From NCBI GenBank assembly GCA_004022145.1, contig RCNU01000001.1: a DNA stretch of 64,000 bases; one strand, written 5' to 3'. Source of the stretch: Paecilomyces variotii (Eukaryota). Made by a program: the position numbers and the translations under genes. Under the pieces are notes generated by a model. The model was not told the DNA's origin, searched no databases, and was given only the letters and a program-made list of their open reading frames with translations. Position 1 is the stretch's first letter. Each line of letters opens with the position of its first letter. This document shows positions 34,526-62,559 of this stretch, in pieces.

Positions 34526-36304
34526 ATGAATCTTTTAGGGTATAATTTTGGTGTTTTGTATATTGGTGCAGCAGCAGCAGTGTATTTCAAGCCAGAATAT
34601 ACTATCTACGACTCGAGACTGTTGACCCTTCTTGCTGTGTTTTCTATCATCACCCTCTTCAAGTTGATATACAATGTGTCGTTATACCCAGCTCTTTTCA
34701 CCCCACTAAAAGAGATACAAACGCCGTCAGTAAGTGGGTCGAGTTAAGCATACCATACTGCCTATTAATATATTTGAAACTGACATTATTATTTTCATAG
34801 GGTCGACACTGGCTTAGAGGAAACGGCGTGTCTTTCTTTGTTGATACACCATTTGAACCAATGAGGAAATGGGCACGCAGTATGCCGAATGACGGTCTGA
34901 TCCGTTACTATACTGTCGGAAATTTGGAGAGGGTCTTTCCGACAAGCACTGCAGCCTTGAGAGAAGTATTGGTAAACAAGGCTTATGATTTTGCCAAACC
35001 TCGAATCATACAACAATTCTTGTACCCTATAGTTGGAAATGGCCTTCTACTTGCAGAGGGGGAAGAACATAAGGTACGTCATGATTATTATGTCGATTCT
35101 ATGTATGTATGTATGTATGTATTGACTCACTTTTCTTCTGTTCCAGGTTCAACGCAAAAGCTTGATGCCAGCGTTCTCATACCGCCACATCAAAGATCTC
35201 TATCCGATTTTCTGGACGAAGAGCATAGAGATGGTGAAAGGAATAGAACAGGATCTGCAGCGCAGAGGGCCCGATGAAGATAACACGATACAAGTCCGCA
35301 ACTGGGTTGGACGAGCAGCGCTCGATATAATCGGCGTGGCGGGCATGGATCAAGACTTCGACTCGCTACGCAACCCTTCTGGAAGATTAAACGAGTCTTA
35401 TCACAAAGTATTTACCCTGCCTTCCTTTGGAACAAAGATGCTTCTGTTACTTGGCAGAATCATCGGTGATATCGCATGGGTCCAGTCCCTGCCAACGAAG
35501 CGAAACAAGGACATCCAGGATGGAAGACAAACGATCCGCGATGTCGCGCGGCAAATGATTCGAGAAAAGAGGGAAAAACTGAAAAATGCCGACTCAAAGA
35601 CCGGCCTGGATATTATCTCTGTTGCCATGTCTGGTGACTCTACCTTCGAAGAAGAAAGATTGGTCGACCAACTCATGACGTTCCTCGCGGCGGGACATGA
35701 AACCACCGCCAGCGCTATGCAGTGGGCTGTCTACGCGCTCTCCAAAAGACCAGAGATGCAAACGCGCCTACGCGAAGAGATTCGCGCAAATCTTCCCTCC
35801 ATTTCTGTAGAAAGACCGGAGCAGATCGACGCCGTCACAATCGACAACCTGCCTTACCTCCACGCTGTCTGCAACGAGGTCCTCCGTTTTCACCCAGTTG
35901 TACCCAACACCAATCGTGTCGCTCTCAAAGACACCACTTTGGTGGGCAAGCCCATTCCAAAAGGTACAACCATTGTCCTAGTACCGGAGGTCATTAATAA
36001 ACTTGAGGAGCTATGGGGTCCGGATGCGGACGAGTTCAACCCAGATCGATTCATGGGTCAGGGTATGGCGAATACGGGTGGTGCAAGCAGTAACTACGCT
36101 CTTCTCACATTCCTTCATGGCCCTCGTAGCTGCATCGGACAGGGCTTTGCAAAAGGCGAGCTAGCCTGTTTGCTTGCTGCTACAGTCGGTCGTTTCAAAT
36201 TCGAATTGAAGTACCCGGATGCTAAGCTGGAAGTGCAGGAAGGTGCTACTCGCGCGCCTAAAGATGGTGTTTTGGCGAAGTTTACGCCAGTGGAAGGGTG
36301 GTAA
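34526..36304 (+). CDS. sphH: Cytochrome P450 monooxygenase (SphH-like)
   Basis: Introns 34730-34800 and 35074-35146. N-terminal anchor, AGHETT, EVLR, PDRF and heme motif FLHGPRSCIG. Symbol from cluster context. Confidence 0.9.
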
Positions 36305-36330
36305 AACTGATACTGGCGAGTCTTTTAGAC

Positions 36331-37911
36331 TGTCACGAACCAGGGTTACGGCGGACCTGCCTAGTCTTGGAGAAGAGATATACGTGTAATAGTTAGATCA
36401 GCTAGTCATACGATACAGCTGTCAAGACTAGGTCGTTCTAATGACCTAGTAAGATAAACCCCCTAGAGAATGGAAGTTAGACGGATCAGCGCCTCTTAAC
36501 TAGTTCGACTGGTCACCCCCATCAAAGAGCTTCCACACCCCAGCTCTTTACAGTTCGAATCGCTCGACCAGCAGTATGTCGGGAAGAGGAGAGACACCAG
36601 GAAGTAGTGCTGAAAATCAGCATGGAGAACCATTGGAATATAGCCCGAGACGTGCGGTGCAGCCCAAATCCGAATACAGCCCGGAACCTGAAGCTCAACC
36701 CGGACCAGCAAGCAGTATTGGTCCTGGGGATCCAACGAACCCAGGAAGTAATACGGATCCTGATGCTCAACAGGAATCAAATACTGTTGATCCCGGACCC
36801 TCTACTTCCACGGCTTTACAGCAGCAAACTGCTTTTGCAACAGCCGAAGCTATGAGAGATACAGCTAAGGGGACGTCAGAGCACAGCACCCTAGCCGTCT
36901 TTCTCAGACTGATGGACAAGTTGATACCTAGTCCAGGAACTACGGCCAATCCAGGAACTGTGGCCAATTCAGGAACTGTGGTCGGTCAAACAACTGTGGC
37001 CAAGCTTCCTGAACCTCATCGGTACCGAGCTACAAATTTGGATGCCCATTACCGTTGGTGCTGCTATATGGATCAATACTTTATCTATAATGCTCACACG
37101 TTTCAAACTGAAAAAAGCAAGGTAAACTACGCCGCCGCGTTGCTTGGAGATGAACACGGAATAGCCTGGAGTCACAGACCCCCTGCTTCGGCCACGACTT
37201 CATGGCAGGGATTTCAACAGTGGTTGTTGGATCGTATCGAGGATCCAAGATATCGGCCATGGACAGCAGCCGTACGATTCTACCGGCTAAGGCAACAGCC
37301 AGGACAGACTGCTCGGAGCTTCCTCAATGAATTCGAGCTTCGCCGAGGCGAATTGGACCCGGATACCATATATCAGCCGGATCACCCTAGTTGGACCCGG
37401 ATATTTTTTTCTATGTTACGGGAAGAAGTACGGAGTCAGCTATTCGAATGTACGGAGATTCCGACAAACTTGTTACAGTTAGCTTGGCAAGCTACAGTCG
37501 TCGAGCAGAATCCTGAAAGCTCAGTCAAATCCCGGACGTCGCGTCCTCTTCGGAGGTCGAAACGCGGTCGTGGCGACGCCGCTCTTACTGTGCCCGCAGC
37601 GGAGGGAACTCCTGCTCGGCCAGTTAAGAAATTGCGAAGGAGGTCAAAGGCGAAGGAGGTTCCTAGTAAGGAGACCCCAAGAGTTCAGGCCGCCGTCGAG
37701 GCCAGGAGATGTGGCCGCCGTCGAGACGCCCGCTCCTGAGTCTGAACCGGCTGCCGTTGAGACGCCGGTGACGACGATTACTGTTGCCGATGCTGATACA
37801 GTAGTTGGGGATCGTCCTGCTGCCTCCGAGGAGGACCCCGTTGCGGATCCTTCTTGCCCAGAGGGTTCGACCGAAGACTTTCCCAGGGGTCTCATCACCC
37901 AGAAAGAATGA
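36331..37911 (+). mobile_element. Ty3/gypsy-type gag-only retroelement relic
   Basis: Begins TGTCACG (LTR-like start). ORF 36576-37739 has a retrotransposon capsid-like pattern (KVNYAAALL...W...SWQGFQQWLL...LRQQPGQTARSFLNEF); frameshifted tail to 37911. No pol or second LTR found. Confidence 0.65.
36933..37004 (+). repeat. Four degenerate 18-bp tandem repeats within gag
   Basis: CCAGGAACTACGGCCAAT / CCAGGAACTGTGGCCAAT / TCAGGAACTGTGGTCGGT / CAAACAACTGTGGCCAAG. Confidence 0.75.
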
Positions 37912-38857: not shown

Positions 38858-41250
38858 TTAAGAAAAGATCCGCAAGTGCGGCATAAAGTCATCTGAGCCC
38901 GGAGCCGGGTCAACAGTTGTAGAATTAAGCGAATTCAGGAACACAAATGAGGTATCCGAATCTTGGAGCGCAAAGGAGGCGTCTGGCTCTTGGAACACAG
39001 AATTGTCAAACCCTGAACTGTTAATTTCTTTAAGTTCCGACCCTATGTAGCCGTAGCCGCTTCCAAGGGGAGAGAGAAGATCTGTTATAGAGCACATGTT
39101 TGTTGATGATTCCGGGCTTGGCTTTTGCCGTTTGTATTGGGTGTTTCGAACGCTTGTTACGTCTTTCACAATAACTGATAATTGGTAGAGCTTACTGTTG
39201 TAAGAGTTTTCGGATCGGCCGTCTGTGATTGCTTCAAGCATGTCGATATAGTCTTGGAGCATGCTGAAATCGGACTTTGAATCCTTGTTGCTGAGGATGG
39301 ATGAAAGAACTTCGTAGAGATACAGTGGAGGAAGCGAGGCAACAAAGCTATGGGCGTGGCATCATTAGTCATCTGTGTTGAGAGCAGTTATGGGTTACTT
39401 CAATACTGACGATGGGAAAACAGCGTGCTTGCCTTCGTCGGGTGGTGAGTTCCAAAGGCTTAGCACAAGTTTCATGCACATCCTAGCGACCTCTTTACAT
39501 CGTTGATATATGGTATCTGGGTGGTGTTTGTGGGGCCAGATTAGTAGCAATTGAACATTTAGGTACCTGATCGTCAACTGAAGCTTATCAGCAGAGGTCT
39601 CAGGCGGGGTTTGAATCATATTCAAGTCAATTCCCGAGTTCGTCAGCCAGACTTGAAGTTTTGATAACATCATGGCTGCGAAAGCCCTAATCTCATCTTC
39701 CCTTTTAGGCTTGACCTGGCTTGCGTATATTTCCAAGTATATCGTCTCTTCAATCCTAGCCAGCTCGGATTTTGCGATGAGAGATGATGCAAGACTAACT
39801 TCAGAGGACACGGCGTATGTCTCGAAATGAATATCCGATGCGGGCATGTTAGGAGACAAACCAGTTGTCCAGCACACTGTTTTATCAATCGTGTACAAAC
39901 AATACGAGATGGTCTGGCGCTCTCTAATGTCTTCGTCGCTGAGGTGACCTTGGAAAGAGTGCCATTGATGGATACCTGTCAACTTTGCGCATCGGGAAGC
40001 GAGATCAAACAATCTCTCGGATTCAACGATGGAAAAATGCTCCTGAGCCACCATGTACTGCATATGGTAAGCCTCACGCTAGGTAGCTACAGAGATAATA
40101 TGTATTTATTTGAAACGCACCAGAGATAAGAGAGCCTGAACATTGATCAGACGAGGTAAAAGAAGCTGATCAATATTTTGAATAGCTCGCTTTGCGTTGG
40201 CACGGAATCCCGCGATCATGTCAAATTCCATTGACGAAACCTTTGTCCCTTGTCTGTTCTGCGTTGACTCGCCACGGTTGGAGCACAATGAGTCTGCCGA
40301 CATGGCCATGAGGATAAGGTTATTGCAGCAGATAATTGACGCAAAGTCTCGTTCCGATGATGGAGATTGTCGCAGCGTGGTTGCCATGTCAATAAATTTC
40401 TCTTTTGTCCAGATGGGGAAGTGAGGGTTGATTGAGGAAAAGTATGGCTCAATCATAGCATCCAAAATAGCAAATGGAGGTGTGGTCGGTGGTAATATAT
40501 CCTTGGCACATTCTCCCTCCTCCTGTTTAACAAGAAGATCGATTTTCCATTGTGCTTGTGAGATGCATTCCTTGAACGTGTGGCTTTCACTGTCGCATCC
40601 ATCTGTCATGTCGTCCTTGATCTTGAGCATGAGTGACTCGAGAGACGTGGATCCAAAGTACCTTTCATCATTATTGTGACCCAAGAGAAATCGACCAGGA
40701 GGCGGCGCAAAGTCCGTCGTTTCCAAAGTGTCCGCGGATTGCTCCGGAGAAAACTGGGGTCTCTGTCCTGGAGGGCTGGACGAATGTCGTGCAGAATTTG
40801 GCGGGGTTACCCATTGCCCATCAAAGAGTCGTTTCAATGATCTTTGCGTGTCTGCTATTGTATTCTTTTATCTAATCAGTAACAGGCGGCTTGAGAGGTA
40901 TATTATTAGCATTATGCTTGACCTACCTCAAGGTGTTGGAGGCGACTTCCCATTCCAAGAATCGTGTGGCTTCTGTGAAATTGTGGGTTAAGTATCACCA
41001 CGCATCAGAAACATGGCAGACATACAGGAGCGTTGTTTGATTGCGCTTTTTGCCCTGACCAGACCACTCGCATTGTATTCCAAGGCGGGTACAATTTCTG
41101 CATGATGGTTTCTCTCTACTGCAGCGAATTTTCCTGGATCGACATTGGTCGCAGACTTGGAAGTGATTGGCCACATTAGCTTTCCTCTCATTGACTGAAA
41201 CTGACATGCTACCTACCAGTGTACTCATCTCTACTGACCTCTCTCGTCAT
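38858..41250 (-). CDS. sphG: Zn(II)2Cys6 pathway-specific transcription factor (SphG-like), about 696 aa
   Basis: CDQCRSRKIRCSREKPSCRNCTRLGIQC plus fungal TF middle region (YFSSINPHFP, CLYTIDK). Exons 41250-41217, 41155-41026, 40972-40927, 40864-40121, 40057-39411 and 39347-38858 are phase-consistent. Confidence 0.9.
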
Positions 41251-41789: not shown

Positions 41790-42620
41790 TATGGAGTATA
41801 GAAACATGCACTGCTTGGTATATCCAAATCGCATAGTCATAAATCTAGTCATTCAGACACGTAACTGGATGAGGCTGAAGACTTTATTGTTGGATCTAAG
41901 GAGGGGTCGTCGCATGCCATATCGAAAATTGCTTCAAGTGCTAGAGTCTGATGTCTCAGAGAATTTCTTGCGCCGGCACTTATGAAAGAAGCTATTCAGA
42001 CTGTGTTGCCCTTCCCGAACCACCTATCTCTAAGAAAAACGGCCCGCGAGCACTTGAGCTGGTCCCTGGAGCGATTGTATACAGTGCTTTGGAATGATGA
42101 GACCTGGGTGTGTCCTAGACATCATATTAGAATCGTCTTCCAGAGAGGGAGGGTCGGATGTTCTTGGGTCCTTTAGGGGCAATAAAAAGGGTCCATCTGT
42201 TTTCTGGGAAAACACTTAGGGTTCAATTGAAGGGGAGTCTTATTGTCAAAGGATAACTCGTCCCTTTAATTGACAAGTATATGCATCTGAAACCTCATCT
42301 TCTCCCAATGCAAGACGGTGCACCAGGACATAGTGCCAGATTGTCCCAGGAGGAGCTTCAATATCGCGCAATTGAAACGATCTTCTGGCCACCCTATTCG
42401 CCAGACCCGAGTCCGGTCGAGACAGTATCGGATGAAACTCGGGATTGAATAGATCAGCACTATTCTCATCGTAGAAAGCTGCATACAGTCAGCTTTGCTA
42501 GGTGGATCAAGAAGGGTGCAAATGCTATATCATGATGGCGCCACCTGTACTACCAAGCTTACCAAGGGTAACACAGGAAATAAAGTAGTTTAGGTTCGAA
42601 AAGTTTGATAACATCCATGA
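41790..42620 (+). mobile_element. Decayed Tc1-type (DD34E) transposase remnant; boundaries approximate
   Basis: Fragments in changing frames: VLWNDETWV (D at 42096), KKGPSVFWE, MQDGAPGHSA (D at 42314) and WPPYSPDPSPVE (E at 42419). Exactly 34 residues separate the second D and the E. Confidence 0.85.
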
Positions 42621-43143
42621 GGAGGCGTCCGGCCCGGCCCAGATTTGAAAGTGTCAAGGGCTCCTACTGGAGGTCACGCAATCTAGGCCAGGATATGTTA
42701 GAGGTCCAGGTAGAGTCTCGCCAACTAGGAGTTCTCCTTTTTGGTCGAGTGGCAGAAAGCCGTCAGGATATATGCCTGCCTGCCACTAGTTGGTATTTAA
42801 TCAAACAAGCTTACAACTTCCTTCAAAATCAAAGATGACAAAGCGGTAGAATGCCAGCAGCAATGCAGAAAGCTATCCATGATATCTCGTATTCTCCCGC
42901 AAATCGGGGACGGGATCCGGGGCTGGTTTCTCGATCTGCTCGGCGCCCGGGCCCCGATTGGCTCACGGGACGTTAAGTATAGGTAGCCCTTTTTGTAAAA
43001 CTTGATTCCCATGGTCGATGTCCCGACGGATTAATATTATTCTTCATTGAATGCAACTCATACATTAGAATCTGGTAATAGAGTTCCACCTATACTTTGT
43101 CGGCTTGAACAGATTTTCGGACTACTCTCTCAACGACCAAAGT

Positions 43144-44388
43144 ATGAAGCCTAACCAGGATCTATTTGGCAAAGTAATCGTCGAGTTCACACATATCAAA
43201 GGATATACATTGACATGATTGGCAGACAGCCTTTGTAACTGGTGGCTCTGGCGGGTTAGGGAAAGCTATATCTAATGCCCTTGCTTCCCGAGGTCAGTTG
43301 GGTCGTCGAATACCTATCTACATCGATATTTGTTCACTTAAAATCAACTTAGGTGCACATGTAACTATATTTTCGCGACGACTCGGCCCTCTAGAAGATG
43401 CAAAGAATGAGATAGTCACAAATTGTGCTGATGCTAGTCGGCAAGAGATCAATGCGGTGCCTCTTGATCTGGCAGATGCAGGGGCAGTACGTGATCCTGG
43501 GATACTTTTTCCCTGGTGAATTCTTCTAACTGGCAAATACTACTCAAGGTATCCGAAGCCTTCAAATCTCAACCTCGAATCGCCGATATCTTATACTGCT
43601 CAGCGGGTGGAAACCATGCCGAAAACGGATTCTTCGTCGACCTCAGTGCCTCACAGCTAGATGCTTGCATGAAGAATAACTACTATTCTACAGCTTACGC
43701 CGCAAAAGCCATGCTGGAAATCTGGGTTGAAAATGACAAGAAGTCCTCCAGTATAGATACCCAGAAACAGCCCAAAGGACATACTACGCGGAAGATGGTT
43801 TTCATCAACAGTGCAGCAGCGTTCCTGGGCCTACCAGGTAGCGTCGCGTATACTCGTGAGTCCACTTTTTTTTGCCTCGAATATGCCTCTGAATTCCCGT
43901 TGAATGACTTACTCTTACTAACATAACACGTCGACTCAGCCGCCAAAAGCGCTGTCCGAGCTCTCGCAGATACCCTTCGCTTCGAAGTCCTCCGCCACAA
44001 CTCCGCAACGACAACCTACACGATCCACATCGCCTTCCCAGCAGACTTTGTGTCTCCTGGATTCAGACTAGAACAAAACACCAAGCCGGATCTTACAAAA
44101 CGTATCCAAGGAACGAACCTTGCATCATTGGCAGAGCTGGAGAAGAAATTCCCATCGTCAGAGAAGGTCGCGCTTGGGGTTATCGCGAGGGTCGATAAGG
44201 GGGACTTTATTATATGTGAGGACTCGCTCGCTGCTAGTTGTCTGTTCACAAATATGATTGGGTTGAGTCCAAAGAGGGGGCTTGGGATCATGGATTCGCT
44301 GATGGGTGTTGTTGTTGGGTGGTTGGTTATGCCTTTTTTGAGACGGAAATGGGAGCGGATGTGCAGGGAGGATGGGGAGAGGATGTGA
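43144..44388 (+). CDS. sphF: 3-ketosphinganine reductase (Tsc10/KDSR)-like SDR (SphF-like)
   Basis: TGGSGGLG, INSAAA, YTPAK (spliced) and a C-terminal hydrophobic anchor. Introns 43174-43225, 43293-43352, 43487-43548, 43856-43939. Confidence 0.88.
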
Positions 44389-50584: not shown

Positions 50585-53500
50585 CTAGCCCTGATTGTTC
50601 TCGGTTGCAATCCGGAACATCTCATTGGCAGCATGTTGACCGAGGATATCAAGAGATCCAATACTCATCATCTCCAACACAGGAAGATCGAATGCAAGCA
50701 CCTGCTTAATCCAAGCACGCAGCTCCAGAGCAACCAAAGAGTCAAGTCCAAGGTCGAGCAGCGGCAAGCTGGTGTTGAGATCCTCCTGGGGCTTGAGCAG
50801 CAGATCCAAGAGCTTCTTGCCGATCTCAACAGCAAAGAGCTTTGATGCCTCAGCGGACTTCAGAATCGAGGGGTCCGCCTGGGCGTTGGCCAAGAAAGAC
50901 TTGAGGACATCGGTAGAGCCAGCAGTGATGCCAACCACGGAGTTGTTGTGGTAAGAGGCCATGCGGCGGTCCTTCTTCCAGATCACGTAGTTGCTAGGGT
51001 CGTGTAGGGGAATGAGTAGAGCTAGACCAACGAGGAAGGTGTTCTTGTGGAGGAAATAGAAGTTGTTCTTGGACGAAGTAGCAAGTACCTTCTTAGCAGC
51101 TTGATCGGGCTTGTTGTGAGCCAACATGGCGATCGCCATGGCATCAATGACCTCCTGCTCCGACACAGGCTTGAAACCGCTGCGGGACATTTTGCCCATC
51201 ATACCCTGGTGCTCTGAAATCCAACCGACGTCCTCGACAGCACCCATGTCAACTACGGAAGCTGCTAGGCCCATATCGTTGCGATATTGGGCGAAAGCAT
51301 CAAGGAAACTGTTTCCACTGGCGTAGTTTGCTTGACCAGCCTGTCCGACGATTCCGGAGACAGAACTGAACATCAGGAAAAAGTCGAGGTCCAAGCCTGC
51401 GGCCACAGACGCATTGTGCAGATTCCAAGTTCCCTGGACCTTTGGTGCCACCGATGCGGTCCACTCGGAGAAACTCATCCTGGTGTAGTTCTCGTTGGCG
51501 ACGACCATGGACATCTGCACAATACCTTTCAGGGGGGATGTCGCGGCAGCAATGGCCTCATTGACGTCCTCAAGCTTTGTGACATCTCCACTGACCAGCT
51601 TGACAGAGCAGCCCATGCTCTGGAGTTCGTGGATGAAGGCATCATCCTTGTTGGTGAGGCCAGCGCTGCGGGACATGTAGATAATCTCGCGGGCGCCGTG
51701 GTCAACCATCCACGTGGAGACAGCGCGCCCAATGCCGCCAAGCCCGCCAATCATCAGGTACGACGCGCTTCCGGGGAACGACACCGCCAGCGCCCTCTTC
51801 GTGGTTGGGAAAGCAATGCCCGTCTCCTCTGCTGCTTCTTTGATCGCTACACCAACGCGACCAATGTGAAGACCCTTCTCCATGAAGCGGAACGCATCCT
51901 GGGTCTGAGCTGCAGGGAAGATCGTCGTTGGCAATGGAGAGATGTGTCCCTTGCCATAGAGGTCTAAGATGGTGAAGATGAGGGCTCTGGCGATGTGGAT
52001 TCTCTTCCACAAGCCGTCGATGTCCACACAGCAGTAGTTGCGGTTAGCCAGGAAAGGCTTCATGTCGAGCTTACTGGAGCCGATCAGATCTCGCTTTCCA
52101 ATCTCAAGCAGCGTTCCAAACTCCGCAACACAGCTCCAGGTAGCGTGCAGAAGCTCACCGGACAGGGAGTTCAGGATGAAGTCCATGCCACGGCCTCTAG
52201 TTTCCCGCATGACCCCATCAACGAAGGACTTGTCACGGGAGTTAAAAATGCGGTTTCTCGGTATGTTATAATTGTCCATCAGATACTTCACCTTCTCCTC
52301 ATTGCCAACTGTGACATACAGCTCTACCTCCAACATCTGGGCGACCTGGATAGCTGCCAGGCCAACACCACCGCAGGCACTGTGGATCATGACAGACTAG
52401 AGGAAGTGAAGTTGTCAGTCATTTCTCAATTACGAGTGGAAGTGTTATGCAACTTACTTGGCCCTTGGTGACCCGTCCAACGTTGATCATCGAGTGGATT
52501 GCAGTGAAATAAGGTATAAGCATCGTTCCAGCCTGGTTGAAGGTCAGGCTGTCGGGAATGCGAACACAGACATCAGCCAGGGTAGTGGTGTATGTCGAGA
52601 AAGCATCCTTTCGGCAGAAGCAAACGACGCGATCACCAACTTGGAGATTGTCAGGGCTGACGTCGGCTCCAACGCGCCTAACAATACCAGCGGCCTCGAT
52701 GCCGAAGAGACGGACAGGAAGCTCAACGATTCCGAGAGCGACCAGAATATCCTAAACATGTTTTGTCAGAATCATATCTTGAAGATTAAACCTTTTATTG
52801 CATTGACTTACGCGGAAGTTCAAACCGGCAGAGTATACTTCGACTTCAACTTCGTCCTTGTCAAGATCCTGTCGTGCATGACGTTGGTAGTGCAGACTGT
52901 TGACACGACCAGGAGTGCGAACATTCAGAGTAGCCATCTCGTTTGAGTCCTCTGGGACCAATAGGTTGTCTGTCAAAACAAAAGGATGGAAACGAGCAAC
53001 CTGAATGCGCTCATTGGAGATTACCCATTCAAAATCAGGATTCAGCTCCTGGTCGCCCTGTCGGGTCTGGAACTTGCCAAGTACTTGGATGAGATACTCG
53101 ACGGACTTGGGGTTCTCGAAACTGTCAACCTGGCAGGTAGCCAGGTCAGCCAGCTGCTCTGTGCGAACTGTTCTGGCGAAACCAAGAACCTGAGCATAGC
53201 GAGGATCGTGGCAGCCGATGTCAACAAGATGGGTGGCCCAGAGCATTCCGGCGTCACGCCCCTGGAGGCTAAGAAGGAAAGTCTTGAATGACAGGAATCG
53301 GTCCTCATCCATATCGTGGAAGAATGGCTTTTCGATGTCCAAGAGTGAAATAACATCCTGTCCGACGGGCGCCTCGTCGCCCAACTGGCACTTGCTCACC
53401 TCGTAACCTTGCTTCTCGAGTTCTCTCAGAACCTGGATGACAGCAGGGCCTTCTTGTTCGAAAAGAACAGTGATCTTGTTCGAGGGCTTTTCAAGAACAT

Positions 53501-56500
53501 TTCTTACGATCATGGTTGTGGTAACTTGGTGAGGCTCTTCTCCATCGGCGGTGACAGCTTGCACGTTGCCAAAGCCGGCGGCAATAAGTCTTGTTTCCCA
53601 CTCACTCTGTCTCAGGTAAGGGATGTCGGTGCGCTCGTCAGTAGCACCCCAGGTCGTGGGAAGCAAACCGAGCACATAGTTCACCCACTTGGATGACGGG
53701 CACAGCTCTTGCAGAAGGAGGCGACCTTCTGGACTCAAGAGCTTCTTGATGTTGACCAAGCTTTCCTGAACATTCTTCGTCTCATAAAGAACATTGGAAG
53801 CAACGATGAGATCGAAGCCGACTTCCTCGAATCCTTGGTCGAAAGGATCACGGCTGATGTCCAAACTAGCAAAGACCATGTTGGGGAATAGCTTTTCTTG
53901 GGATTCAGAGACGACGTATCCCGGCGCGGTTAGCGTGTAGTTGGAGCAGAGAACATCTCCATTTGCGTGGGTCAACTCAGCGATGATTTCGCCATGGAGC
54001 GAAACGCCCTTTCCTGTTCCAATTTCCAGAATACGGAGGTTGGGCTTCGAGTGGCCCAGGGCCCGGATGAACTCGCCCCGTTCGAGCTGTCCCAAGAACC
54101 CATAGACTCGGGCGAGATCACCCTCTTGCAAAACACCCTCCAAAGGTTCACCAGCGAGTAGGGCATCGATCTTATTGCAGATCTGATGGATGACATTGGC
54201 GACTGGGGCTGCAGAAGTATCAGCAAGCTGGGCCTTGATGCTTTCAATCCGGGCTGAGATGGCCTGGGTGTCAAGGCCTGTCCAGGTTGAAGGCAGCTTG
54301 GTCACTATCGATGTTGATTGAGCTCGAATCCAAGCAATATACTTTTGCAGATGGGGCAGAGTTGAATGGCTTGCGGTTTCAGTGAAATGACGCTGGGACA
54401 ACAACAAGCAGATTTCTCCGAGTTCTTCAAGCAAGCGCGATTGCTCTGAATGGTCTGATGGGATATGAATAAGATCATTCACGTCCAGGAAGTCGATGTC
54501 TGGCTTCCACTCGCATCGCGAAGCAGCGTGGTCATCATTCGAATCAGCTGAGCCGGCGCCATCAGCTAGAGACATCCGGATTCCGGTGGCTTCGACGACT
54601 TCTTTGCCCTCGGCTATGCAGCGGCTATCTCCAACGACGGAGAAGTTGCTTGAAAGCTTCGCGGCCGAACTGATTAGCATGTCCGAGGAGCATCGGTGAA
54701 TGGTCACTTTGTCGATGCTAGTCGGCAGCCAGGTCTTGGTCTTGCGAGCATAGCCGTTGACGGCAGCCGCGCCCAGAATCTGAAGTGTGCCGTCGAGCGC
54801 GGTGGGATGGATGAAATAGTTGCCCTCGTCGCCTTGTCTTCCATTGGCGATGTTTCCAAGAGCCTGCTGTTCAGAAGTTGAAGTGGCAATAGTCTCCAAG
54901 GTCTGGAAAGACTGTCCAAGATTCAATCCACCTTTAATCATCTTCTCATACCATTTTCTGACATTAATCTTTCGAGGCAGGGGCTCGGGCTCTACAGCAT
55001 CTTCAGGGGTGGAGGGCAGAGCGCAGACCTCTCCGGAGCAGTGTTTGGTCCAGTTCCGTCCGTTGTAGGCTGAGACGGAGAACTCCCACCATGAGCTATT
55101 CAAGGAGTTTGTCAGACGGTGCGGCCGGAAGTTAGTCATAATCTCCGTTGGCTTGCCTTCGCTGAGCACCAGAGCTGTGCTGACGATGATGTTGCGGATG
55201 CTGAATCCCCCATTCACATTTGTCAACTGTCTGATGGCCTCGCCTGCAAGAGCAATATAGCCACAGAATGGGTAGACGATGTTCTCCCCGACCTTGTGGT
55301 CACGAATCCATGGCACGTTCGTAACGTGGAGCAGATTCCGCCAGGCAGGCTCAGTGTCGCTGCTCTCAGCCACCCTTACACCGAGAAGGTCATGGTGAGG
55401 AGCTTTGCGGTTGCGCCATTCTTTGCTGAGGCGAGACTCATACCAGTAGCTGCCTTCATGGTTCCAGGGGTAGCGCGGAAGGTCTGGCAAACAGATACCA
55501 CTTGGGAAGAGGGCCTCGAGATCAATGTTGACGTTGAGTGAGTGGAGTCCTCCAATAGCGGACAGGAACGAGGCGGTGCAGTCCTGGTTACGCGCCATTG
55601 TAGAAATATAGGGAGCAGAAGAGCGAGCTTGAGAGAGGATTTGTCGCAATGGTCCAGCGAGAGCTCCGTGGGGTCCGACCTCAAGGAAGACAGCATTTTG
55701 GCCAACCTCGTGCTTCAGAATGGCAGTGACAGCCTCGCGGAATCGAACAGGCGACTCCAAATTGTCCTGCCAGTACTTGGGTCCGATGGTGTCCTCGGCA
55801 CCCAGGATTCTTCCACTCACACTGGAAAAGAAGAGCTTTGATGGGGTTTTTCCAACCACTTGTTCGCCAATCAAAGCTTGGTAGTCACTTCCAATCTCCT
55901 CCATGTGGTATGAGTGGTAAGCCTTGTCGACCTGGAGCTGCCTGGCGAGCATTTGAGGCTGCTTCTGCTTGATAGCAGTGATGACAGATTTGACAGCATC
56001 AACATCGCCAGAGATAGTAACGCTCTTAGGAGAGTTGTCGCAAGCGATGGAGACGTGCGGGATAAGATACTTCTCAGTCTCACTCCAACCCATTCCAACC
56101 GCAGCCATGGCTCCTGGCCTTTTCTGCTTGGTAGTCACGGCTCCACGATGGTGAGCAGCGGTAATGGCCTCCTTAGCAGTGAGAGCACCGGAGGCATAGG
56201 CGGCAGCGATCTCACCACTGGAATGACCCACGACGGCGGCCGGGACAACTCCAGCGGCTGCGAGGGTATCGACCAAAGCAATCTGGATAGCAGTGCACAT
56301 TGGCTGAGAGAATTCCGCCATGCCGATACGGCTCTTCTTAGCTGGCTTCTTGAGTTCCGCCTCAATCGAGTATTGCGGCTTTTCACCGGAAATGGTCTGC
56401 AGGTGCGCATCGAGGGCTCGGATGCTTGCCTTGAAAGTCTTGTTCGATTGCAGCAGCTCACGTCCCATCTGGGGCCATTGAGCGCCCTGGCCAGTGAAGA

Positions 56501-58286
56501 TCATCACAACGTTGGGCGCTTTCGTAGACTTGAGGTTTGCGGGCTGCGACACGCTCTCGATAGCCCCGTTGGTGACGATAGCATAGGCTCGGTGCGGCAA
56601 ATGCTCACGTCTTCTTGCCAAAGTGTAGGCCAAATCGCTTATCTTGTCTGGATTTTTCTCAATCCACTCCTTGCAGTTGTCGACCACCCTCGTTATCGAC
56701 TTGGCCGAATTAGCTGTGAAGAGCAGGAGCTGGGGTTCCTCTGGCGTTTCGTAAATTGCATCCGGAACGTTATAAGTAGCCGCAGACTCGAGAACAACAT
56801 GGGCGTTAGCACCTCCAATGCCGAAGGAGTTGACACTAACACGTTCCAGCTTGTCCTTAGGCCAAGGCATGGGCTCAGTGGGAACTGTGAGCTTGGCCTC
56901 ATCGAATGGAATGCTGGGATTTGGAGTGGTGAATTTGATATTCGGTGGAATGGTGCGATGTTCGAGTGCTTTCACCATCTTCAAAAGGGACACAAGACCG
57001 GATGCTGCTTCTGTGTGGCCGAGATTCGGTTTCACTGATCCGATATAAACACCCTTCTCTCCAAAGACGCGGGCCACAGCATTTGCCTCGATTGGGTCTC
57101 CAGTCGGGGTCCCAGTTCCGTGACATTCAACCATTGCAGTCTCGCCAAAATCAGTAATACCACCAAGCTCGTATGCTCTCCGAATCAGGGCTTCTTGTGC
57201 TTGTGTGCTGGGCTGTGATAGTGTTGGGGTCTTTCCATCCACGTTGTGGGATGTGGATCTCACGACAGCTCGAATAGGGTTACCGTCCCTAATTGCATCT
57301 GCAAGCGGCTTGATATAGACTGCGGTGACTGCTTCTCCGCGGGCGTACCCATTGGCATCAGCAGAGAATGTCTTGCAAGAGCCATCGCTTGACAAAACAC
57401 CCTGCTCTTGCATGGCCATGGACATTCCTGGTGCAAGGATCAGGTTCACACCACCGACCAAGGCTGACCCGCAGTCGCCTCGGTTGATGGCAGCACATGC
57501 CTCATTTAAAGCGACCAGGGCAGAGGAGCACGCTGTACGGATGGTCATACTGTTCGAAATGTGAGTGAATTGCTCTTTGGGCTCTGGTTGATGAACGTAC
57601 CTTGGTCCTTGTAGATCGAATTCGTAAGAAATACGGTTGGCGACAACGAAATCGCCAGAACCGGAGATACGATGAATACCCCATGGCTGACTCTCCTTTC
57701 CAAGCATCTCCAGCCAGTCTTCTCCGAAGTTACCGATATAAGTACCGATAGTCTTGCCTCTCCAATTGGTCACACCGGCGTCTTCAAATGCCTCTCGTGC
57801 GACTTCCAGCATGAGCCGTTGCTGAGGGTCAGCTCGCTCTACCTCTGTTCGCGTCATGGTGAAAAAGGACATGTCCAAGGCGCCGAGATCGACGTTCTCA
57901 TCGAGGAAGTATCCATACTCCGTCGATACAGTTCCAGGCTTCTTTGTGTTTGAATAATATGAATCTACATTGTACCGCGATTCAGGAACACGACATCGAC
58001 CGTCTTTTTTTTCAATGAGGAAGTCCCAGAGTTCTTCGGGTGTAGTCAAGCCTCCTGGGAGACGACAGGCCATACCACAGATAGCGATGGGGATTTGGCC
58101 ATTAGTATGAGTTGCAGTGCCCAAAACACCGTTCCTGCTGTTGATATCGGCAGAGACTCCGTTCGTGGACTCACCATTAACCGGCACATTGGCGACATCG
58201 TCGCTGGAATGCCCGTTGGTGAACCCATTGGTCGAAGCCACGGGCACTCTACGGCCCTCGAATGTGTTGCTGTTATCGATAGTCAT
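50585..58286 (-). CDS. sphB: Highly reducing iterative type I PKS, KS-AT-DH-(psi)MT-ER-KR-ACP, about 2509 aa (SphB-like)
   Basis: KS TACSS/ECHGTGT/NLGH; AT GHSSG/AYHS; DH HKVGENIVYP/HPTALD; ER IHSACGGVG; KR GGLGGIG/YASGN; ACP LGLDSL. Introns 57550-57600, 52752-52811, 52397-52457. Probable ATG at 58286 (MTIDNSN). Confidence 0.96.
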
Positions 58287-58692
58287 GGCGGGCCTGTTCG
58301 TGAATGTAGATCGAAAATGCAAATGGCCTGTCTCATCGCAGAGAGATCTGCACTTGACTTTAGAGTAAAACATAACAAGCCCAACAACGTGTATACGTCT
58401 TGTATGCTCTTCGGGGTCGGCTCGGCAAGCCGGGGTCGGCAAGCCACGCCGTCGCCTCGGTTTACCGATCAACAGGGCCCGCCGGGACCCGTTCAGCGCC
58501 CCGCGTTGGCAAAACGCCGTCTCTCGGGCCGGAGCGCCGGTGGGGGCCATTATTTTTAGTTGACACTCCCGATTTGGACATAAATGGGATTGAGATGGGA
58601 CTGAAACGAAGAACGTCGTATTTGTCGAATCATAAAGGGTTTTCATTACGTTCGCTCGGTCGCATCTTAGTCGAAGAATTCACTATCTCGTC
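58287..58692. promoter_or_regulatory. GC-rich bidirectional promoter between PKS and oxoamine synthase
   Basis: About 400 bp between divergent ATGs. Dense CGG triplets at 58410-58540, including CGGGACCCG at 58483 and two copies of TCGGCAAGCC. Confidence 0.7.
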
Positions 58693-60220
58693 ATGGCAGT
58701 CCCTGACAAAATCGTCTCGGAGCTGGCCTCCTGGATGAAGGACCAGAAGCTAGTGGCTCCCCAGATGAAGGACGCCACAGCATTCTACAGGAATCTTGAG
58801 GAAGCTCTGGATGTTCGACGATCCACCCAGTCCATGAACACCCGAGGACAGAATACATGGAAGGATGGGAGCGCCATCGACTTCTGCTCCAACGACCTTC
58901 TGTCCTTGGGACGCACTGGAGAATTGAGAACTGAGTTCCTCTCAGAACTTGCCAAATACCCCGACTTTGCGCTGTACTCAGGTGGATCGCGTGTGCTGGG
59001 TGGCAACTACGACTACATCGAGAAGGTGGAGCAGGAAATCGCTGACTTCCTCGGTGCAGAGACCGCTCTCATGTTCGACTCAGGATTCAATGGAAATGTT
59101 GCTATCTACACTTCTATTCCTCGTCCTGGAGACGCCATTGTGTACGATGAGCTGGTTCACTTGAGCACACACACCGGTATGGCCGCGTCGTTGGCTGCGA
59201 CTAAGGTTGCTTTCCGTCACAACGACATCGATGCCTTTCGTGAGGCAATGATTTCCGTTATGGAGTCTCAGCCCATGATCCAGGATGGTTCGCGCTCTAT
59301 TCTTGTTTCTGTCGAGTCGGTATACAGCATGGATGGCGATGTTTGCCCTCTCGTGGAGATGCTCGAGATTGCCAGGGAGATTTGCCCTAAGAAAAACTTC
59401 GCCTTCATTACGGACGAGGCTCATGCAACTGGAATTATTGGTCCCAAGGGTGTTGGTCTTGTTAAGCACCTCGGTCTTGAGAAAGAGATTGCCGTTCGCC
59501 TGAACACATCTGGAAAGGCTCTAGCCTGCACTGGATGTGAGAACCCCTTTACATAACTCCCATGTTGGGCGACATAACTGACAATTTCAAAAGCGGTGGT
59601 TCTTGGAAGCGCCACTGTCCGAAACGCAATGCTGAACTTTGCTGGCTCTGTGACAAATACCACAGCTCCCTCCTTCCCTTCTGTTGCCGTTGTTCGATCG
59701 GCTTATAACTTGCTGCGGACTGGTGCTACCCAGAAGGTATGCAATCCATATATTGAAGTGAATCTTTACATGTCATACTCACAGGTTTTTCCAGGCTCAA
59801 GACAACATCCAGCATCTGGTAAGATACTTCTTCAAGAGCGTCAGCTCCCACACTCTTTGGGACCAAGCGAACGATATGGGTCTTCTTTCCATTCCCATCA
59901 TCGAGGAATCAAAGGATCGCGATTTCGTGACGCACATCGTTCCAATCTGGACCAGACAAAAGTACAACTGGTGGCTGTTCTTCCACCTGCAACTGGCTAA
60001 GATCGCCGTTGTTCCCATCAATTATCCCCAGGTTCCCAAAGGTAAGGCTCGCCTAAGAATCATGATTCACGCTACAAACACTGAATCAGAGGTCGATTAC
60101 CTTGTTTCTATGATTTACGGCTTCGTTAAGGAGATGATGGATATCGAGGAGAGTGGGGAGAAGGGAAAGATTCCCAAGGCTGCGCAGAAGATTTACGCGT
60201 TGATGGCCGCAAATGCGTAA
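58693..60220 (+). CDS. sphA: PLP-dependent alpha-oxoamine synthase (SPT/AONS family) for polyketide release (SphA-like)
   Basis: DFCSNDLLSL, SGGSR, SGFNGN, VESVYSMDGD, DEAH and NTSGKAL (PLP Lys). Introns 59537-59593 and 59737-59794. Confidence 0.93.
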
Positions 60221-61223
60221 GGCACGGGCTATGTTGACAACGCCCTATATAAGGGGTTTTGAGGGGCAAGAAAGTATAATCACCTATAGATACTGCTAGA
60301 TTTGAAACGCGGTAAAGCGTGTTGGAGCCAAGCCCAGTTATGAAAAATGTCGTGTTTGCAGGGTCAGTGAACTATGACAAAGCGAGAGAAGTGCCCATGG
60401 ACTGGGATTTTATCTTCAGCTGTGGTACAGGGTGGGGTTAGACCCTCTCGCCCGGACTGAGAGGACCCTGTTGCCTGAGCGGTTGCGGGAACATAAATGG
60501 GAGTAACTCCTATATAGATTATCAACCCATATTCTCTAGGGGAATCGTGAAAATATGCCATCGATAATTCGGTTTCGTATATATTCAAATTATATAAAGT
60601 ATGAGGCTTTCAATATAAGATAGATAGAGACGTACCTGTGATAAAGCGAAAGGTATTAATATTTTTTTTTTCAAGCAGAATAAGCTTAATCTTATTCTAA
60701 AACTTTACTCATTCGCAAAGTTCTACGTATCTAGAAGAAAGTGTCGAATCCAAAGGCACGGAAGCAAACAGTTCTTCAACCATCTAGCTAGCAGCGATAT
60801 TAGCTAGCTACTGCTTGATGGATTCTAGGATCTGGGGGGTAATGCCCATATTTGTCTCGTAATTGCACCACGAAATTAAATCCTAGGGATCTAGTAGGTC
60901 CTATCTTATATGAAAGAACCTGATGCAAATGGCAATATGGCAGGTTGTCAACATATAGGGGCCCTTACTCAAAACACTCGATTCTAAGAAACAACTCTCT
61001 TGGCACCATGAAATGTCATTGGGACTAAGTTGTCTATGCAAAGACCCTCTTTGCCGGGCAAGCGGTCCGACCCTTCGGGTTGACGGCCCGAGCAGCGTCA
61101 GTGGCAGGGATTCTTGGACAATTGAGGATAGCTTATAACTTTGAGCTTTATTGTATTTCGATAGTACCACGCTAGAACAGAATCTCCTCAGGTTCTGAAG
61201 TCCCAAATACGCATTGATTCAAA

Positions 61224-62461
61224 ATGGATGACAAAGCATACGCTCTCCCTCCAGGTTCTCGAGTTCTTGTGACTGGAGCAGATGGCTATATCGCTTCACA
61301 GATAATCAATCTATTGCTAAGTCGTGGGTATCATGTCCGTGGGCAAGTGCTTGAACATCGACAATGGCTTGACGAGCATTTCAAGGGGAAATATGGCAAT
61401 CTTTTCAAGTCTGTCATCTTGTCTGACTTGGATGATCGCGAGGGCATAGTCCCTTTGCTAGACGATGTAGCTGGCGTGATCTTGGTGGTATGGGAGTAAA
61501 GTTAGTACCGAAGTGGAAATGGTGCGGGACTGACTATTGTTAGGCAATGGATATGTCCTTTGGAGATGACCCGAGCATTGTCGAGAAAACAGTGAAAAGC
61601 ACTCTGACTTGGCTCGAGGTCGCTGCGGAATCGTCCTCAGTGAAACGCGTGGTATTGACGTCTTCTTCCTCTGCATGTGTGACGCCCGTGGCGAATTCAC
61701 CCGCTCGATTTGACAAAGGCATGTCCCAGAGATCAGGATACGACAATGTGCTAACAAGTACCAGATTCATTCAACCATGCAGCCGTCGCTGCTGTCCAGA
61801 ACAACACAGCTGAGATCCCAGGTATGATGTCCGCGTCGATATATGCCGCCTCAAAGACAGAGGCAGAAAGACAAGCCGTGAAATGGGTACAGGATCATGA
61901 ACCCTCTTTCGTTCTTAATATGGTTTTGCCTTATTGGTGTGTGAGTATTGCCAATTTGCTTTTAGCTATAACGCATTATTGACTTTATATAAGCTCGGAC
62001 CTCGCGTTCACCCCGAGGCCGGTAGTCCAATGGGAAGTATGGGCATGGCAAGTGCGCTCGTAAAGGGTTACGGGGACTTTATGTATAGGTTCCCACCCAG
62101 TGAGTGAATTTCCAACTCTCTCTCTCTCTCTCTTATACTGTTCTAACGGTATTCAGTGTGGTATGTGAGTGTCGAAGATGTAGCATACCTTCACATTGCC
62201 GCTCTTCTTCATCCAGACCTAAAGCTGGAACGCATTTTTGCTATGGCAGCACCGTTCAACTGGACTGATGTTGTGGAGATCATTCGCAAACTCCAACCGG
62301 ATAACGATAAGATTCCAGATCCACCAGCTGACGAAGGCCGCTGTCTGCACGAGTTCCTCGAGGCTGGCAAGGCAGAGAAGCTTTTACAGGAATTCTGTGG
62401 ACGGTCTGGTTGGACCTCGTTGGAGGATTGCCTTGTTGTTGGATTGCCAACATACGACTGA
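61224..62461 (+). CDS. Extended SDR / aldehyde reductase II-like NAD(P)-dependent reductase
   Basis: VLVTGADGYIA, KRVVLTSSS, YAASK, VSVEDVA. Introns 61488-61543, 61719-61764 (GC-AG), 61941-61993, 62100-62156. Confidence 0.88.
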
Positions 62462-62559
62462 TAGTATATTGAGAATGAGATGGATTTTTAAAGCTAAGTG
62501 GGAACTATTTGACGCGTTCCTGGTTTCTCAAGCGCAAATAGAACCTCCTACGTAGTACG

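What the first reader, a model, noticed from the sequence alone, without database searches (positions are those of the whole stretch)
34526..62461. Complete sphingolipid-mimic (sphingofungin-type) biosynthetic gene cluster
Seen: HR-PKS with no TE/R domain, divergent from a PLP alpha-oxoamine synthase, plus KDSR-like reductase, PhyH dioxygenase, P450, HxxxD acyltransferase, MFS and Zn2Cys6 TF. Established: AOS-mediated condensation of an amino acid onto a PKS chain followed by 3-keto reduction is the fumonisin/sphingofungin logic and mirrors SPT plus Tsc10. The order AOS-PKS-dioxygenase-MFS-acyltransferase-KR-TF-P450 matches sphA-H as I recall it from Aspergillus fumigatus; a related cluster is described in Paecilomyces variotii. 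Inference: the product is an SPT-inhibiting sphingofungin congener. It is new only if this host or congener is unreported.
Basis: partly seen in the sequence, partly recalled or inferred. Interest (0 to 1): 0.8.

Follow-up and report, generated by a model that had tools for sequence, protein, structure and literature searches.

The report
Known Paecilomyces variotii sphingofungin cluster
This stretch is the sphingofungin biosynthetic gene cluster of the mould Paecilomyces variotii, which is intact and transcribed but has already been published, so it is correctly read and not new.

Summary
Window 34526-62461 carries eight intact genes of the sphingofungin (sph) cluster plus a ninth reductase gene. 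In window order they are sphH (P450), sphG (Zn2Cys6 regulator), sphF (3-ketoreductase), sphE (acyltransferase), sphD (MFS), sphC (PhyH dioxygenase), sphB (2509-aa HR-PKS with no release domain), sphA (PLP alpha-oxoamine synthase, divergent from sphB) and an aldehyde-reductase-II-like gene.

The host is Paecilomyces variotii (Byssochlamys spectabilis). The spliced SphA is 470/470 identical to Swiss-Prot SPHA_BYSSP and to solved structure 9PEP. SphC, SphE, SphF and SphH are also 100% identical to deposited P. variotii proteins. The first 66 residues of SphH equal the published PvSphH peptide.

Identity to Aspergillus Sph proteins is 80% for SphA, 78.5% for SphB, 77-78% for SphF and 57-64% for SphH. 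Gene order matches the published A. fumigatus sphA-H order. Spliced RNA contigs from one public run confirm 10 introns.

P. variotii is the original source of sphingofungins E and F, and papers state that its sph cluster and PvSphA are already characterised.

Minor unreported details: the sphI-like reductase lies beside sphA rather than sphH, two transposon relics sit inside the cluster, and there is a candidate promoter motif, AATCGGG.

The parts
34526..36304 (+). sphH, cytochrome P450 monooxygenase, 544 aa. Exons 34526-34729, 34801-35073, 35147-36304.
   Evidence: The spliced map reproduces deposited P. variotii protein P0362 exactly. Pfam p450 E 5e-75. Heme motif FLHGPRSCIG. Residues 1-66 equal the published 'SphH (Pv)' peptide, compared by eye. 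64% identical to A. thermomutatus 'sphH'.
36576..37739 (+). ORF-X, a 387-aa retrotransposon gag-like open frame inserted between sphH and sphG. Not a pathway gene.
   Evidence: No Pfam hit. The exact sequence is not in the protein collection. Atlas feature search gives Retrotrans_gag clusters at 0.92-0.93, which is a lead only. No gene is numbered here in deposited annotations.
38858..41228 (-). sphG, Zn2Cys6 transcription factor. My own model is 720 aa, exons 41228-41026, 40972-40927, 40864-40121, 40078-39399, 39347-38858.
   Evidence: Zn_clus E 1.7e-10 on exon 1. Fungal_trans E 2e-5. The model was built by hand and is not validated by a deposited protein or by RNA.
42257..42448 (+). Relic of a DDE-type transposase in the sphG-sphF spacer.
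   Evidence: Pfam DDE_3 E 9.4e-6, below the gathering score, on a 63-aa fragment.
43144..44388 (+). sphF, KDSR/Tsc10-like short-chain 3-ketoreductase, 328 aa, 5 exons (43144-43173, 43226-43292, 43353-43486, 43549-43855, 43940-44388).
   Evidence: Exact map to deposited protein P0376. adh_short E 1.8e-22. TGGSGGLG and YTPAK motifs. 77-78% identical to A. fumigatus proteins P0392 and P0388. More distant relatives are named 3-dehydrosphinganine reductase. 3 of 4 introns are seen as joints in run X1.
44596..46104 (-). sphE, acyltransferase (Transferase family, HxxxD), 502 aa, single exon.
   Evidence: The exact sequence is in the collection within a cluster of P. variotii proteins. Pfam Transferase E 2e-9. 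HSLMD at residues 174-178.
46722..48512 (+). sphD, MFS transporter, 569 aa. Exons 46722-46979, 47061-48512.
   Evidence: MFS_1 E 1.4e-28 and TRI12 E 1.6e-21. My own model. Its single intron is confirmed by joint 46979/47061 in run X1.
48707..49684 (-). sphC, PhyH-family Fe(II)/2-oxoglutarate dioxygenase, 325 aa, single exon.
   Evidence: The exact sequence is in the collection. PhyH E 1.2e-25. HRD motif. 87.6% identical to 'Fum3p' of Nannizzia gypsea.
50585..58286 (-). sphB, highly reducing PKS, 2509 aa, KS-AT-DH-cMT-ER-KR-ACP with no release domain. Exons 58286-57601, 57549-52812, 52751-52458, 52396-50585.
   Evidence: Pfam domains. Introns placed by hand. The spliced frame is open, with motifs and 51 residues after the ACP serine. 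78.5% identical to A. fumigatus P0166 and 79.9% to A. udagawae 'reducing polyketide synthase sphB'. 1 of 3 introns is seen as a joint in X1.
58287..58692 (.). 406-bp divergent promoter region between sphB and sphA.
   Evidence: Defined by the coordinates of the two ATGs. Holds one AATCGGG and one CGGGACCCG site.
58693..60220 (+). sphA, PLP-dependent alpha-oxoamine synthase (aminoacyl transferase), 470 aa. Exons 58693-59536, 59594-59736, 59795-60220.
   Evidence: Exact map to P0124, which is SPHA_BYSSP. 470/470 identical to PDB 9PEP 'Aminoacyl transferase sphA'. 80% identical to SPHA_ASPFC. Both introns are seen as joints in X1.
61224..62461 (+). Aldehyde-reductase-II-like extended SDR, a candidate sphI counterpart, 341 aa. 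Exons 61224-61487, 61544-61718, 61765-61940, 61994-62099, 62157-62461. One intron is GC-AG.
   Evidence: Best PDB relatives are Aldehyde reductase II/2, E 9e-9 for exon 1 and 6e-11 for exon 5. Model built by hand. 3 of 4 introns, including the GC-AG one, are seen as joints in X1. A. fumigatus sphI is listed as a putative aldehyde reductase. Orthology was not tested.

Best explanation
This is the sphingofungin (sph) biosynthetic gene cluster of Paecilomyces variotii, complete and transcribed.

Shown here:
- Gene content, intact frames and catalytic motifs.
- Identity to deposited and solved P. variotii proteins.
- Collinearity with the A. fumigatus sph cluster.
- Splicing in one RNA run.

Taken from papers on the A. 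fumigatus enzymes and on PvSphA, and inferred for this locus:
- SphB, an iterative highly reducing PKS, builds a C18 chain that stays on its ACP because the enzyme has no release domain.
- SphA, a PLP enzyme of the AONS/SPT family, off-loads the chain by decarboxylative Claisen condensation with aminomalonate. The P. variotii enzyme also accepts substituted aminomalonates, which would give the C2-hydroxymethyl and C2-methyl head groups of sphingofungins E and F.
- SphF reduces the 3-keto group.
- SphH (P450) and SphC (PhyH dioxygenase) hydroxylate C14 and C4.
- SphE acylates, SphD exports and SphG activates the cluster.
- The products mimic sphingoid bases and inhibit serine palmitoyltransferase. 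SphA and SphF also back up the host's own sphingolipid synthesis.
For: -: exon 1 of the AOS is 99% identical to a P. variotii protein.
- that protein's cluster includes P0124, named 'Aminoacyl transferase sphA ... SPHA_BYSSP'.
- GT-AG spliced maps reproduce 5 of 5 deposited P. variotii proteins exactly (SphA, SphF, SphH, SphE, SphC).
- PDB 9PEP 'Aminoacyl transferase sphA' is identical over all 470 residues.
- the SphH N-terminus equals the published PvSphH peptide.
- identity to Aspergillus Sph proteins is 80% (SphA), 78.5-79.9% (SphB), 77-78% (SphF) and 57-64% (SphH).
- accession numbers are spaced identically in P. variotii and A. fumigatus (SphA to SphF five apart). Eight consecutive numbers run from the P450 to SphA.
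- the published order is sphA-I.
- 10 of the 14 joints listed match my exon borders in sphF, sphD, sphB, sphA and the reductase gene.
- Papers, passages read: PMC10936153 (enzyme roles; SphF complements tsc10; dual role of SphA and SphF), PMC13612406 (cluster described in A. fumigatus and P. variotii; PvSphA takes aminomalonate derivatives), PMC9603476 (the sphA-Pv swap yields sphingofungins C3 and C4), PMC13351049 (native decarboxylative Claisen condensation).
Against: - I could not read the paper that first described the cluster (Bissell et al. 2022, not held). Which P. variotii genes it delimited, and whether any were deleted in P. variotii, I know only at second hand.
- SphD and SphG were assigned by family, position and, for SphD, a by-eye match to a published N-terminal peptide. 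They were not aligned to A. fumigatus proteins.
- SphH is only 57-64% identical to its Aspergillus namesakes.
- Nothing in the gene content explains where substituted aminomalonates come from.
- In run X1, one sphB intron is retained in a contig and another is contradicted by a different joint. Two of my three sphB introns therefore rest on homology alone.
- Product formation by this particular locus was not and cannot be tested here.
Confidence: 0.96

Rival explanations
1. The cluster belongs to a different sphinganine-analogue class, such as fumonisin/AAL-type (alanine or glycine condensation, tricarballylic esters, ceramide-synthase inhibition) or myriocin itself, rather than sphingofungin.
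For: All of these share the PKS + AOS + KDSR-like reductase core. Some relatives carry FUM-style names: 'Fum3p' for the SphC homologue and 'FUM15' for P450 relatives. Myriocin MyrA is reported as more than 60% identical to PvSphA.
Against: SphA is identical to the protein named and characterised as sphingofungin SphA. The Pfam scans of the region found no NRPS-like, acyl-CoA-synthetase, tricarboxylate-transporter or ceramide-synthase ORF. The myriocin AOS is said to be under 20% identical to Fum8, and the sph clusters fall in a separate Eurotiales clade from the myriocin clusters. The producer species is known for sphingofungins E and F.
Confidence: 0.02
2. The genes are the sph cluster, but in this strain they are silent or non-productive, so no sphingofungin is made.
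For: The A. fumigatus cluster needed overexpression of sphG to be linked to its product. Two transposon-derived relics sit inside the cluster. Not every P. variotii isolate has been shown to make sphingofungins.
Against: All nine frames are intact with catalytic motifs. Spliced contigs of sphF, sphD, sphB, sphA and the reductase gene occur in run X1, which carries the same coded organism label as the best DNA holders.
Confidence: 0.1
3. The cluster ends at sphA, and the aldehyde-reductase-like gene at 61224-62461 is an unrelated neighbour.
For: In A. fumigatus the gene next to sphA is a phospholipase-B-like gene, and sphI lies at the other end. No function could be assigned to SphI. The reductase promoter has none of the AATCGGG sites or CGG(G/A)(A/T)(T/C)CCG-type sites.
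Against: It belongs to the same enzyme class as the putative function given for sphI. It lies 1 kb from sphA and is spliced in the same run as the sph genes.
Confidence: 0.55

Closest known systems
Sphingofungin (sph) cluster of Paecilomyces variotii / Byssochlamys spectabilis (SPHA_BYSSP; PvSphA, PvSphH; PDB 9PEP)
   Same: It is the same locus. SphA, SphC, SphE, SphF and SphH are 100% identical to deposited P. variotii proteins. SphA is identical to the solved structure. The SphH N-terminus is identical to the published peptide.
   Different: Nothing at the protein level for the five proteins tested. The deposited annotations I saw number eight genes from the P450 to SphA and do not call ORF-X. 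I could not see how the original paper drew the cluster borders.
Sphingofungin cluster sphA-sphI of Aspergillus fumigatus (AFUB_034530 to AFUB_034450)
   Same: Same eight gene families in the same order, A to H. Identities are 80% for SphA, 78.5% for SphB and 77-78% for SphF. The PKS lacks a release domain, sphA and sphB are divergent, and the chemical logic is the same.
   Different: SphH is only 57-64% identical. The aldehyde-reductase-type gene lies beside sphA here, whereas sphI lies beside sphH there. Here there are gag-like and DDE relics between sphH/sphG and between sphG/sphF. PvSphA is reported to be less specific than AfSphA and to accept substituted aminomalonates. The products are E and F rather than B, C and D.
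Putative myriocin cluster myrA-H of Isaria sinclairii and Mycelia sterilia
   Same: Same BGC family by the MyrB phylogeny. MyrA is reported as more than 60% identical to PvSphA. The AOS prefers aminomalonate and the product inhibits SPT.
   Different: Different clade (Sordariomycetes against Eurotiales) and different gene order. No sphE homologue is reported outside clade II. I made no sequence comparison here because no Myr proteins were in hand.
Fumonisin FUM cluster (Fum1 PKS, Fum8 AOS, Fum13 reductase, Fum3 dioxygenase)
   Same: PKS chain released by an AOS and followed by 3-keto reduction. A PhyH-type dioxygenase is present. The cluster reductase can replace Tsc10.
   Different: Fum8 uses alanine and is said to be under 20% identical to the MyrA/SphA type. 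No genes for tricarballylic esters and no ceramide synthases are found here. The target is ceramide synthase rather than SPT.

Membership tests
Sphingofungin (sph) biosynthetic gene cluster | SphA-type PLP alpha-oxoamine synthase with the catalytic lysine and PLP-pocket residues | tested here: met
   470/470 identical to SPHA_BYSSP and to PDB 9PEP. K275, H156, S158, N135 and D241 are present. In a 9-sequence alignment K275 is conserved in 8 of 9 and the other four in 9 of 9. Residue names match those quoted in PMC13351049.
Sphingofungin (sph) biosynthetic gene cluster | Highly reducing iterative PKS without a thioesterase or reductase release domain, adjacent to and divergent from sphA | tested here: met
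   KS-AT-DH-cMT-ER-KR-ACP, with 51 residues after the ACP serine. 78.5-79.9% identical to Aspergillus SphB. The two ATGs are 406 bp apart on opposite strands.
Sphingofungin (sph) biosynthetic gene cluster | KDSR/Tsc10-like 3-ketoreductase SphF | tested here: met
   Exact match to deposited P. variotii SDR P0376. 77-78% identical to A. fumigatus proteins whose accession numbers are five from SphA. Relatives are named 3-dehydrosphinganine reductase or tsc10. Catalytic Tyr-Lys is present. Enzyme activity was not tested.
Sphingofungin (sph) biosynthetic gene cluster | P450 SphH with the N-terminal helix-loop-helix ER signal | tested here: met
   Residues 1-66 equal the published PvSphH HLH peptide, compared by eye. 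64% identical to A. thermomutatus 'sphH'.
Sphingofungin (sph) biosynthetic gene cluster | PhyH dioxygenase SphC, acyltransferase SphE, MFS SphD and Zn2Cys6 SphG | tested here: met
   Pfam families are present. SphC and SphE are exact matches to deposited P. variotii proteins. For SphD and SphG only family and position were tested. No alignment to the A. fumigatus proteins was possible.
Sphingofungin (sph) biosynthetic gene cluster | Gene order sphA-B-C-D-E-F-G-H | tested here: met
   Read right to left, the window order equals Fig. S1 of PMC10936153. Accession spacing is the same in both species.
Sphingofungin (sph) biosynthetic gene cluster | Production of sphingofungins that depends on the cluster | not testable with these tools
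   Known only from the literature: P. variotii makes sphingofungins E and F, and PvSphA swapped into A. fumigatus gives C3 and C4.
Fumonisin/AAL-type SAM cluster | Tricarballylic-ester genes (NRPS-like, acyl-CoA synthetase, transporter) and cluster ceramide synthases | tested here: not met
   No such Pfam family appears among the 52 ORF translations scanned across the window. ORFs under 100 aa were not scanned systematically.

The most novel reading that the evidence does not exclude
The P. variotii cluster differs functionally from the A. fumigatus one in two unreported ways. First, the aldehyde-reductase-II-like gene beside sphA is a relocated sphI counterpart. It acts as a tailoring oxidoreductase on the sphingofungin chain, for example interconverting the C14 alcohol and the C14 ketone. 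That E and F carry a 14-oxo group is recalled from memory, not taken from any call. Second, AATCGGG together with CGG(G/A)(A/T)(T/C)CCG-type sites is the SphG response element that co-regulates sphA-F.
Probability: 0.12. Interest if true: 0.3.

Novelty: already known. Interest (0 to 1): 0.08.

Why it matters
Sphingofungins are nanomolar inhibitors of serine palmitoyltransferase, and SphA has become an engineered biocatalyst. That is why the locus is already well studied. For the scan, the value is a clean positive control. A tool-free reading of raw sequence placed the cluster borders on the right ATG and stop codon and named the right family. Nothing here changes what is known about the pathway. 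The small unreported details (position of the sphI-like gene, transposon relics, candidate promoter motif, antisense joints in sphB) interest only people who work on this cluster.

Tried and rejected
- **Synteny of the reductase gene in other species.** A scan of metagenome contigs with a 9-sequence SphA alignment kept 79 loci. All were 27-50% identical AONS/SPT-type relatives and none was an sph cluster, so it said nothing.
- **Whole genome of the window.** Not held. Copy number of ORF-X and of the DDE relic could not be checked.
- **Bissell et al. 2022 (ACS Chem Biol).** Not held.
- **Earlier scan notes.** None for this genome.
- **First splice-mapping script.** It failed for 2 of 6 maps because it ignored donors inside a codon. 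After the fix, 5 of 5 mapped.
- **Automatic intron finder.** It worked for sphD but failed for sphG and the reductase gene. Those two were modelled by hand.
- **Plain sharing of 7-mers and 8-mers among six promoters.** No better than shuffles.
- **Runs X2 and X3 (metatranscriptomes).** These gave long, unspliced contigs 95-99% alike, running through introns and spacers. They show a related strain's DNA-like sequence, not transcription. X4 covers only parts.
- **Contig depths.** Not used to rank genes.
- **Fourth intron of the reductase gene.** It lies in a skipped CT repeat and was not assessed.
- **ORF-X as a pathway enzyme.** Considered and rejected: no Pfam family, gag-like by Atlas, and not annotated.
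- **ORFs at 30.8-34.5 kb as a further cluster gene.** Considered and rejected: only short broken frames.

Full report
**What is in the window.** I read all six frames of 30-64 kb stop to stop and scanned 25 ORF translations against Pfam. Ten had hits.
- A P450 at 35126-36304.
- A Fungal_trans fragment at 39395-40078.
- Two SDR fragments at 43214-43926.
- A Transferase-family protein at 44596-46125.
- An MFS at 47058-48512.
- A PhyH dioxygenase at 48707-49693.
- A PKS split over two frames at 50585-58679, with KS, AT, DH, methyltransferase, ER, KR and ACP.
- A class I/II aminotransferase-fold protein at 58636-59556.

A Zn2Cys6 domain sits on the regulator's first exon. Position 34526 is the ATG of the P450.

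**Whose DNA it is.**
- The first exon of the AOS is 99% identical to a Paecilomyces variotii protein.
- That protein's 90% cluster contains P0124, named by UniRef 'Aminoacyl transferase sphA ... Byssochlamys spectabilis ... SPHA_BYSSP'.
- A script threads a protein through the DNA with canonical introns. It reproduced 5 of 5 deposited P. variotii proteins letter for letter: SphA (470 aa, 3 exons), SphF (328 aa, 5 exons), SphH (544 aa, 3 exons), SphE (502 aa) and SphC (325 aa). An earlier version failed on 2 of 6 maps.
- The PDB holds a chain, 9PEP, 'Aminoacyl transferase sphA', identical to the window's SphA over all 470 residues. A second SphA structure set is 9DOS, 9DRI and 9DS0.
- The first 66 residues of the window's P450 equal, by eye, the peptide printed as 'SphH (Pv)' in Fig. 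S10 of PMC10936153.

**Comparison with Aspergillus.**
- SphA is 80% identical to SPHA_ASPFC.
- My spliced SphB has four exons and 2509 aa in one open frame. It is 78.5% identical to A. fumigatus P0166 and 79.9% to A. udagawae 'reducing polyketide synthase sphB'.
- SphF is 77-78% identical to A. fumigatus proteins.
- SphH is 64% identical to A. thermomutatus 'sphH', 61% to A. clavatus 'sphH' and 57% to an A. fumigatus Z5 model.
- Fig. S1 of PMC10936153 gives the A. fumigatus order as phospholipase-B-like | sphA B C D E F G H I | shikimate dehydrogenase, with sphI a putative aldehyde reductase.
- Read from right to left, the window has sphA, B, C, D, E, F, G, H in that order.
- Accession numbers agree. 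SphA and SphF are five apart in both species. In P. variotii, eight consecutive numbers run from the P450 to SphA.

**Integrity.**
- The PKS has TACSS, HGTGT, GHSSG, EIGTGKG, HSACGGVG, GGLGGIG, YASGN and GLDSL. It stops 51 residues after the ACP serine, so it has no release domain.
- The usual DH pattern HxxxGxxxxP is not matched literally. The sequence reads HKVGENIVYP.
- SphA has K275, H156, S158, N135 and D241. SphF has TGGSGGLG and YTPAK. SphE has HSLMD, SphC has HRD and SphH has FLHGPRSCIG.

**Transcription.** One search for runs and one laying of four runs on 43001-63000 gave 14 joints.
- Ten match my exon borders: three of four sphF introns, the single sphD intron, one of three sphB introns (52752-52811), both sphA introns, and three of four reductase introns, including a GC-AG intron at 61719-61764.
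- All ten are from run X1, whose kind is only guessed to be RNA. The splicing itself shows that it holds cDNA.
- Against my models, the sphB intron at 52397-52457 is retained in one X1 contig. The intron at 57550-57600 is not seen, and instead a joint 57560/57705 appears.
- Four joints do not fit any sense gene model: 49831/49884, 54898/54979 (seen in both X1 and X4), 57560/57705 and 59996/60101. The three that read GT..AG on the plus strand lie inside or beside minus-strand genes. 59996/60101, seen in X4 only, reads CT..AC on the plus strand inside plus-strand sphA. All four therefore point to antisense transcripts or assembly artefacts.
- Runs X2 and X3 gave unspliced contigs 95-99% alike and show no transcription.

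**How it works.** The mechanism is taken from papers, of which I read passages and one supplement.
- SphB with SphA makes the first intermediate. SphF is the 3-ketoreductase, SphH the P450, SphC the C4 hydroxylase and SphE the acetyltransferase.
- SphA uses aminomalonate rather than serine with the polyketide-like substrate, and SphF complements yeast tsc10.
- SphA and SphF lessen self-poisoning (PMC10936153).
- PvSphA is less specific and accepts aminomalonate derivatives. The sph cluster is described in A. fumigatus and P. variotii (PMC13612406).
- Swapping in sphA-Pv gives sphingofungins C3 and C4 (PMC9603476).
- The native reaction is a decarboxylative Claisen condensation (PMC13351049).
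- P. variotii yields sphingofungins E and F, with IC50 of 7.2 and 57 nM on SPT (PMC7663581).
- For this window these steps are inferred from sequence identity. Only gene content, motifs and splicing are shown here.

**What differs from A. fumigatus.**
- The ninth gene (61224-62461, 341 aa, five exons) is nearest to Aldehyde reductase II/2 structures 1UJM and 8JQK.
- That is the class given for sphI, but it lies beside sphA, not sphH. I had no SphI sequence, so orthology is untested.
- Between sphH and sphG lies a 387-aa open frame with no Pfam hit. Its best Atlas matches are Retrotrans_gag clusters at 0.92-0.93, which is a lead only.
- A DDE_3 fragment lies between sphG and sphF.
- A RIP-like block of 27-32% G+C lies at 29-31 kb, and no gene-like frame lies between it and sphH.

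**Promoters.**
- AATCGGG occurs six times in the window. Five of those are in the sphF, sphE/D, sphC and sphB/A upstream regions. In a control with randomly placed segments, 6 of 300 trials scored as high.
- CGGNNNCCG occurs 22 times against 9.5 expected, and 0 of 100 shuffles reached 22. Eight of the 22 lie in the six promoter segments.
- Neither motif was tested in other species.

**Verdict.** Novelty is 'already known' and interest is low.

Noticed in passing
window 42902, 42953, 46232, 49696, 58568 (AATCGGG); 42911, 46313, 46320, 49908, 58483 (CGG-N3-CCG type): Five of the six AATCGGG sites in the window lie in sph promoters. 6 of 300 random-placement controls score as high. CGGNNNCCG is twice as frequent as expected. 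These are possible SphG sites. None lies upstream of sphH, sphG or the reductase gene.
   Followed up: partly
window 36576-37739 (+): An intact 387-aa gag-like open frame sits between sphH and sphG. It has no Pfam hit, is not in the protein collection and is not numbered in deposited annotations. No pol follows it.
   Followed up: partly
window 42257-42448 (+): A 63-aa fragment resembling a DDE_3 transposase (E 9.4e-6, below the Pfam cutoff) lies in the sphG-sphF spacer.
   Followed up: no
window 29001-31000: An AT-rich block (27-32% G+C, TpA/ApT 1.4, RIP-like indices) lies 3.5 kb upstream of sphH. It may mark the left edge of the cluster.
   Followed up: partly
window 54898/54979, 57560/57705, 49831/49884, 59996/60101: Four joints in RNA-derived contigs do not fit the sense gene models. 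54898/54979 is seen in runs of two studies and reads GT..AG on the plus strand inside minus-strand sphB. This hints at spliced antisense RNA or an assembly artefact.
   Followed up: no
window 61719-61764: The second intron of the aldehyde-reductase-like gene has a GC donor (GC-AG, 46 nt). A joint in run X1 confirms it.
   Followed up: yes
protein P0006 (Trichophyton soudanense SphA homologue): It has Glu in place of the PLP-binding Lys275, alone among 9 aligned SphA homologues. The dermatophyte copy may be inactive.
   Followed up: no
window 16893-18011 (+): A histidine-box protein with a weak FA_desaturase match (E 1.9e-6, below the cutoff) lies 16.5 kb upstream of sphH. Several unrelated genes lie between, and nothing links it to the cluster.
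   Followed up: no
protein cluster 2: The 90% protein cluster holding the 325-aa SphC also holds about 2500-aa A. fumigatus SphB proteins. This looks like a clustering artefact, perhaps from a fused gene model. It usefully supplied SphB sequences.
   Followed up: no
window 1-2826 (+): A Raptor/KOG1 N-terminal domain gene runs off the left end of the window.
   Followed up: no
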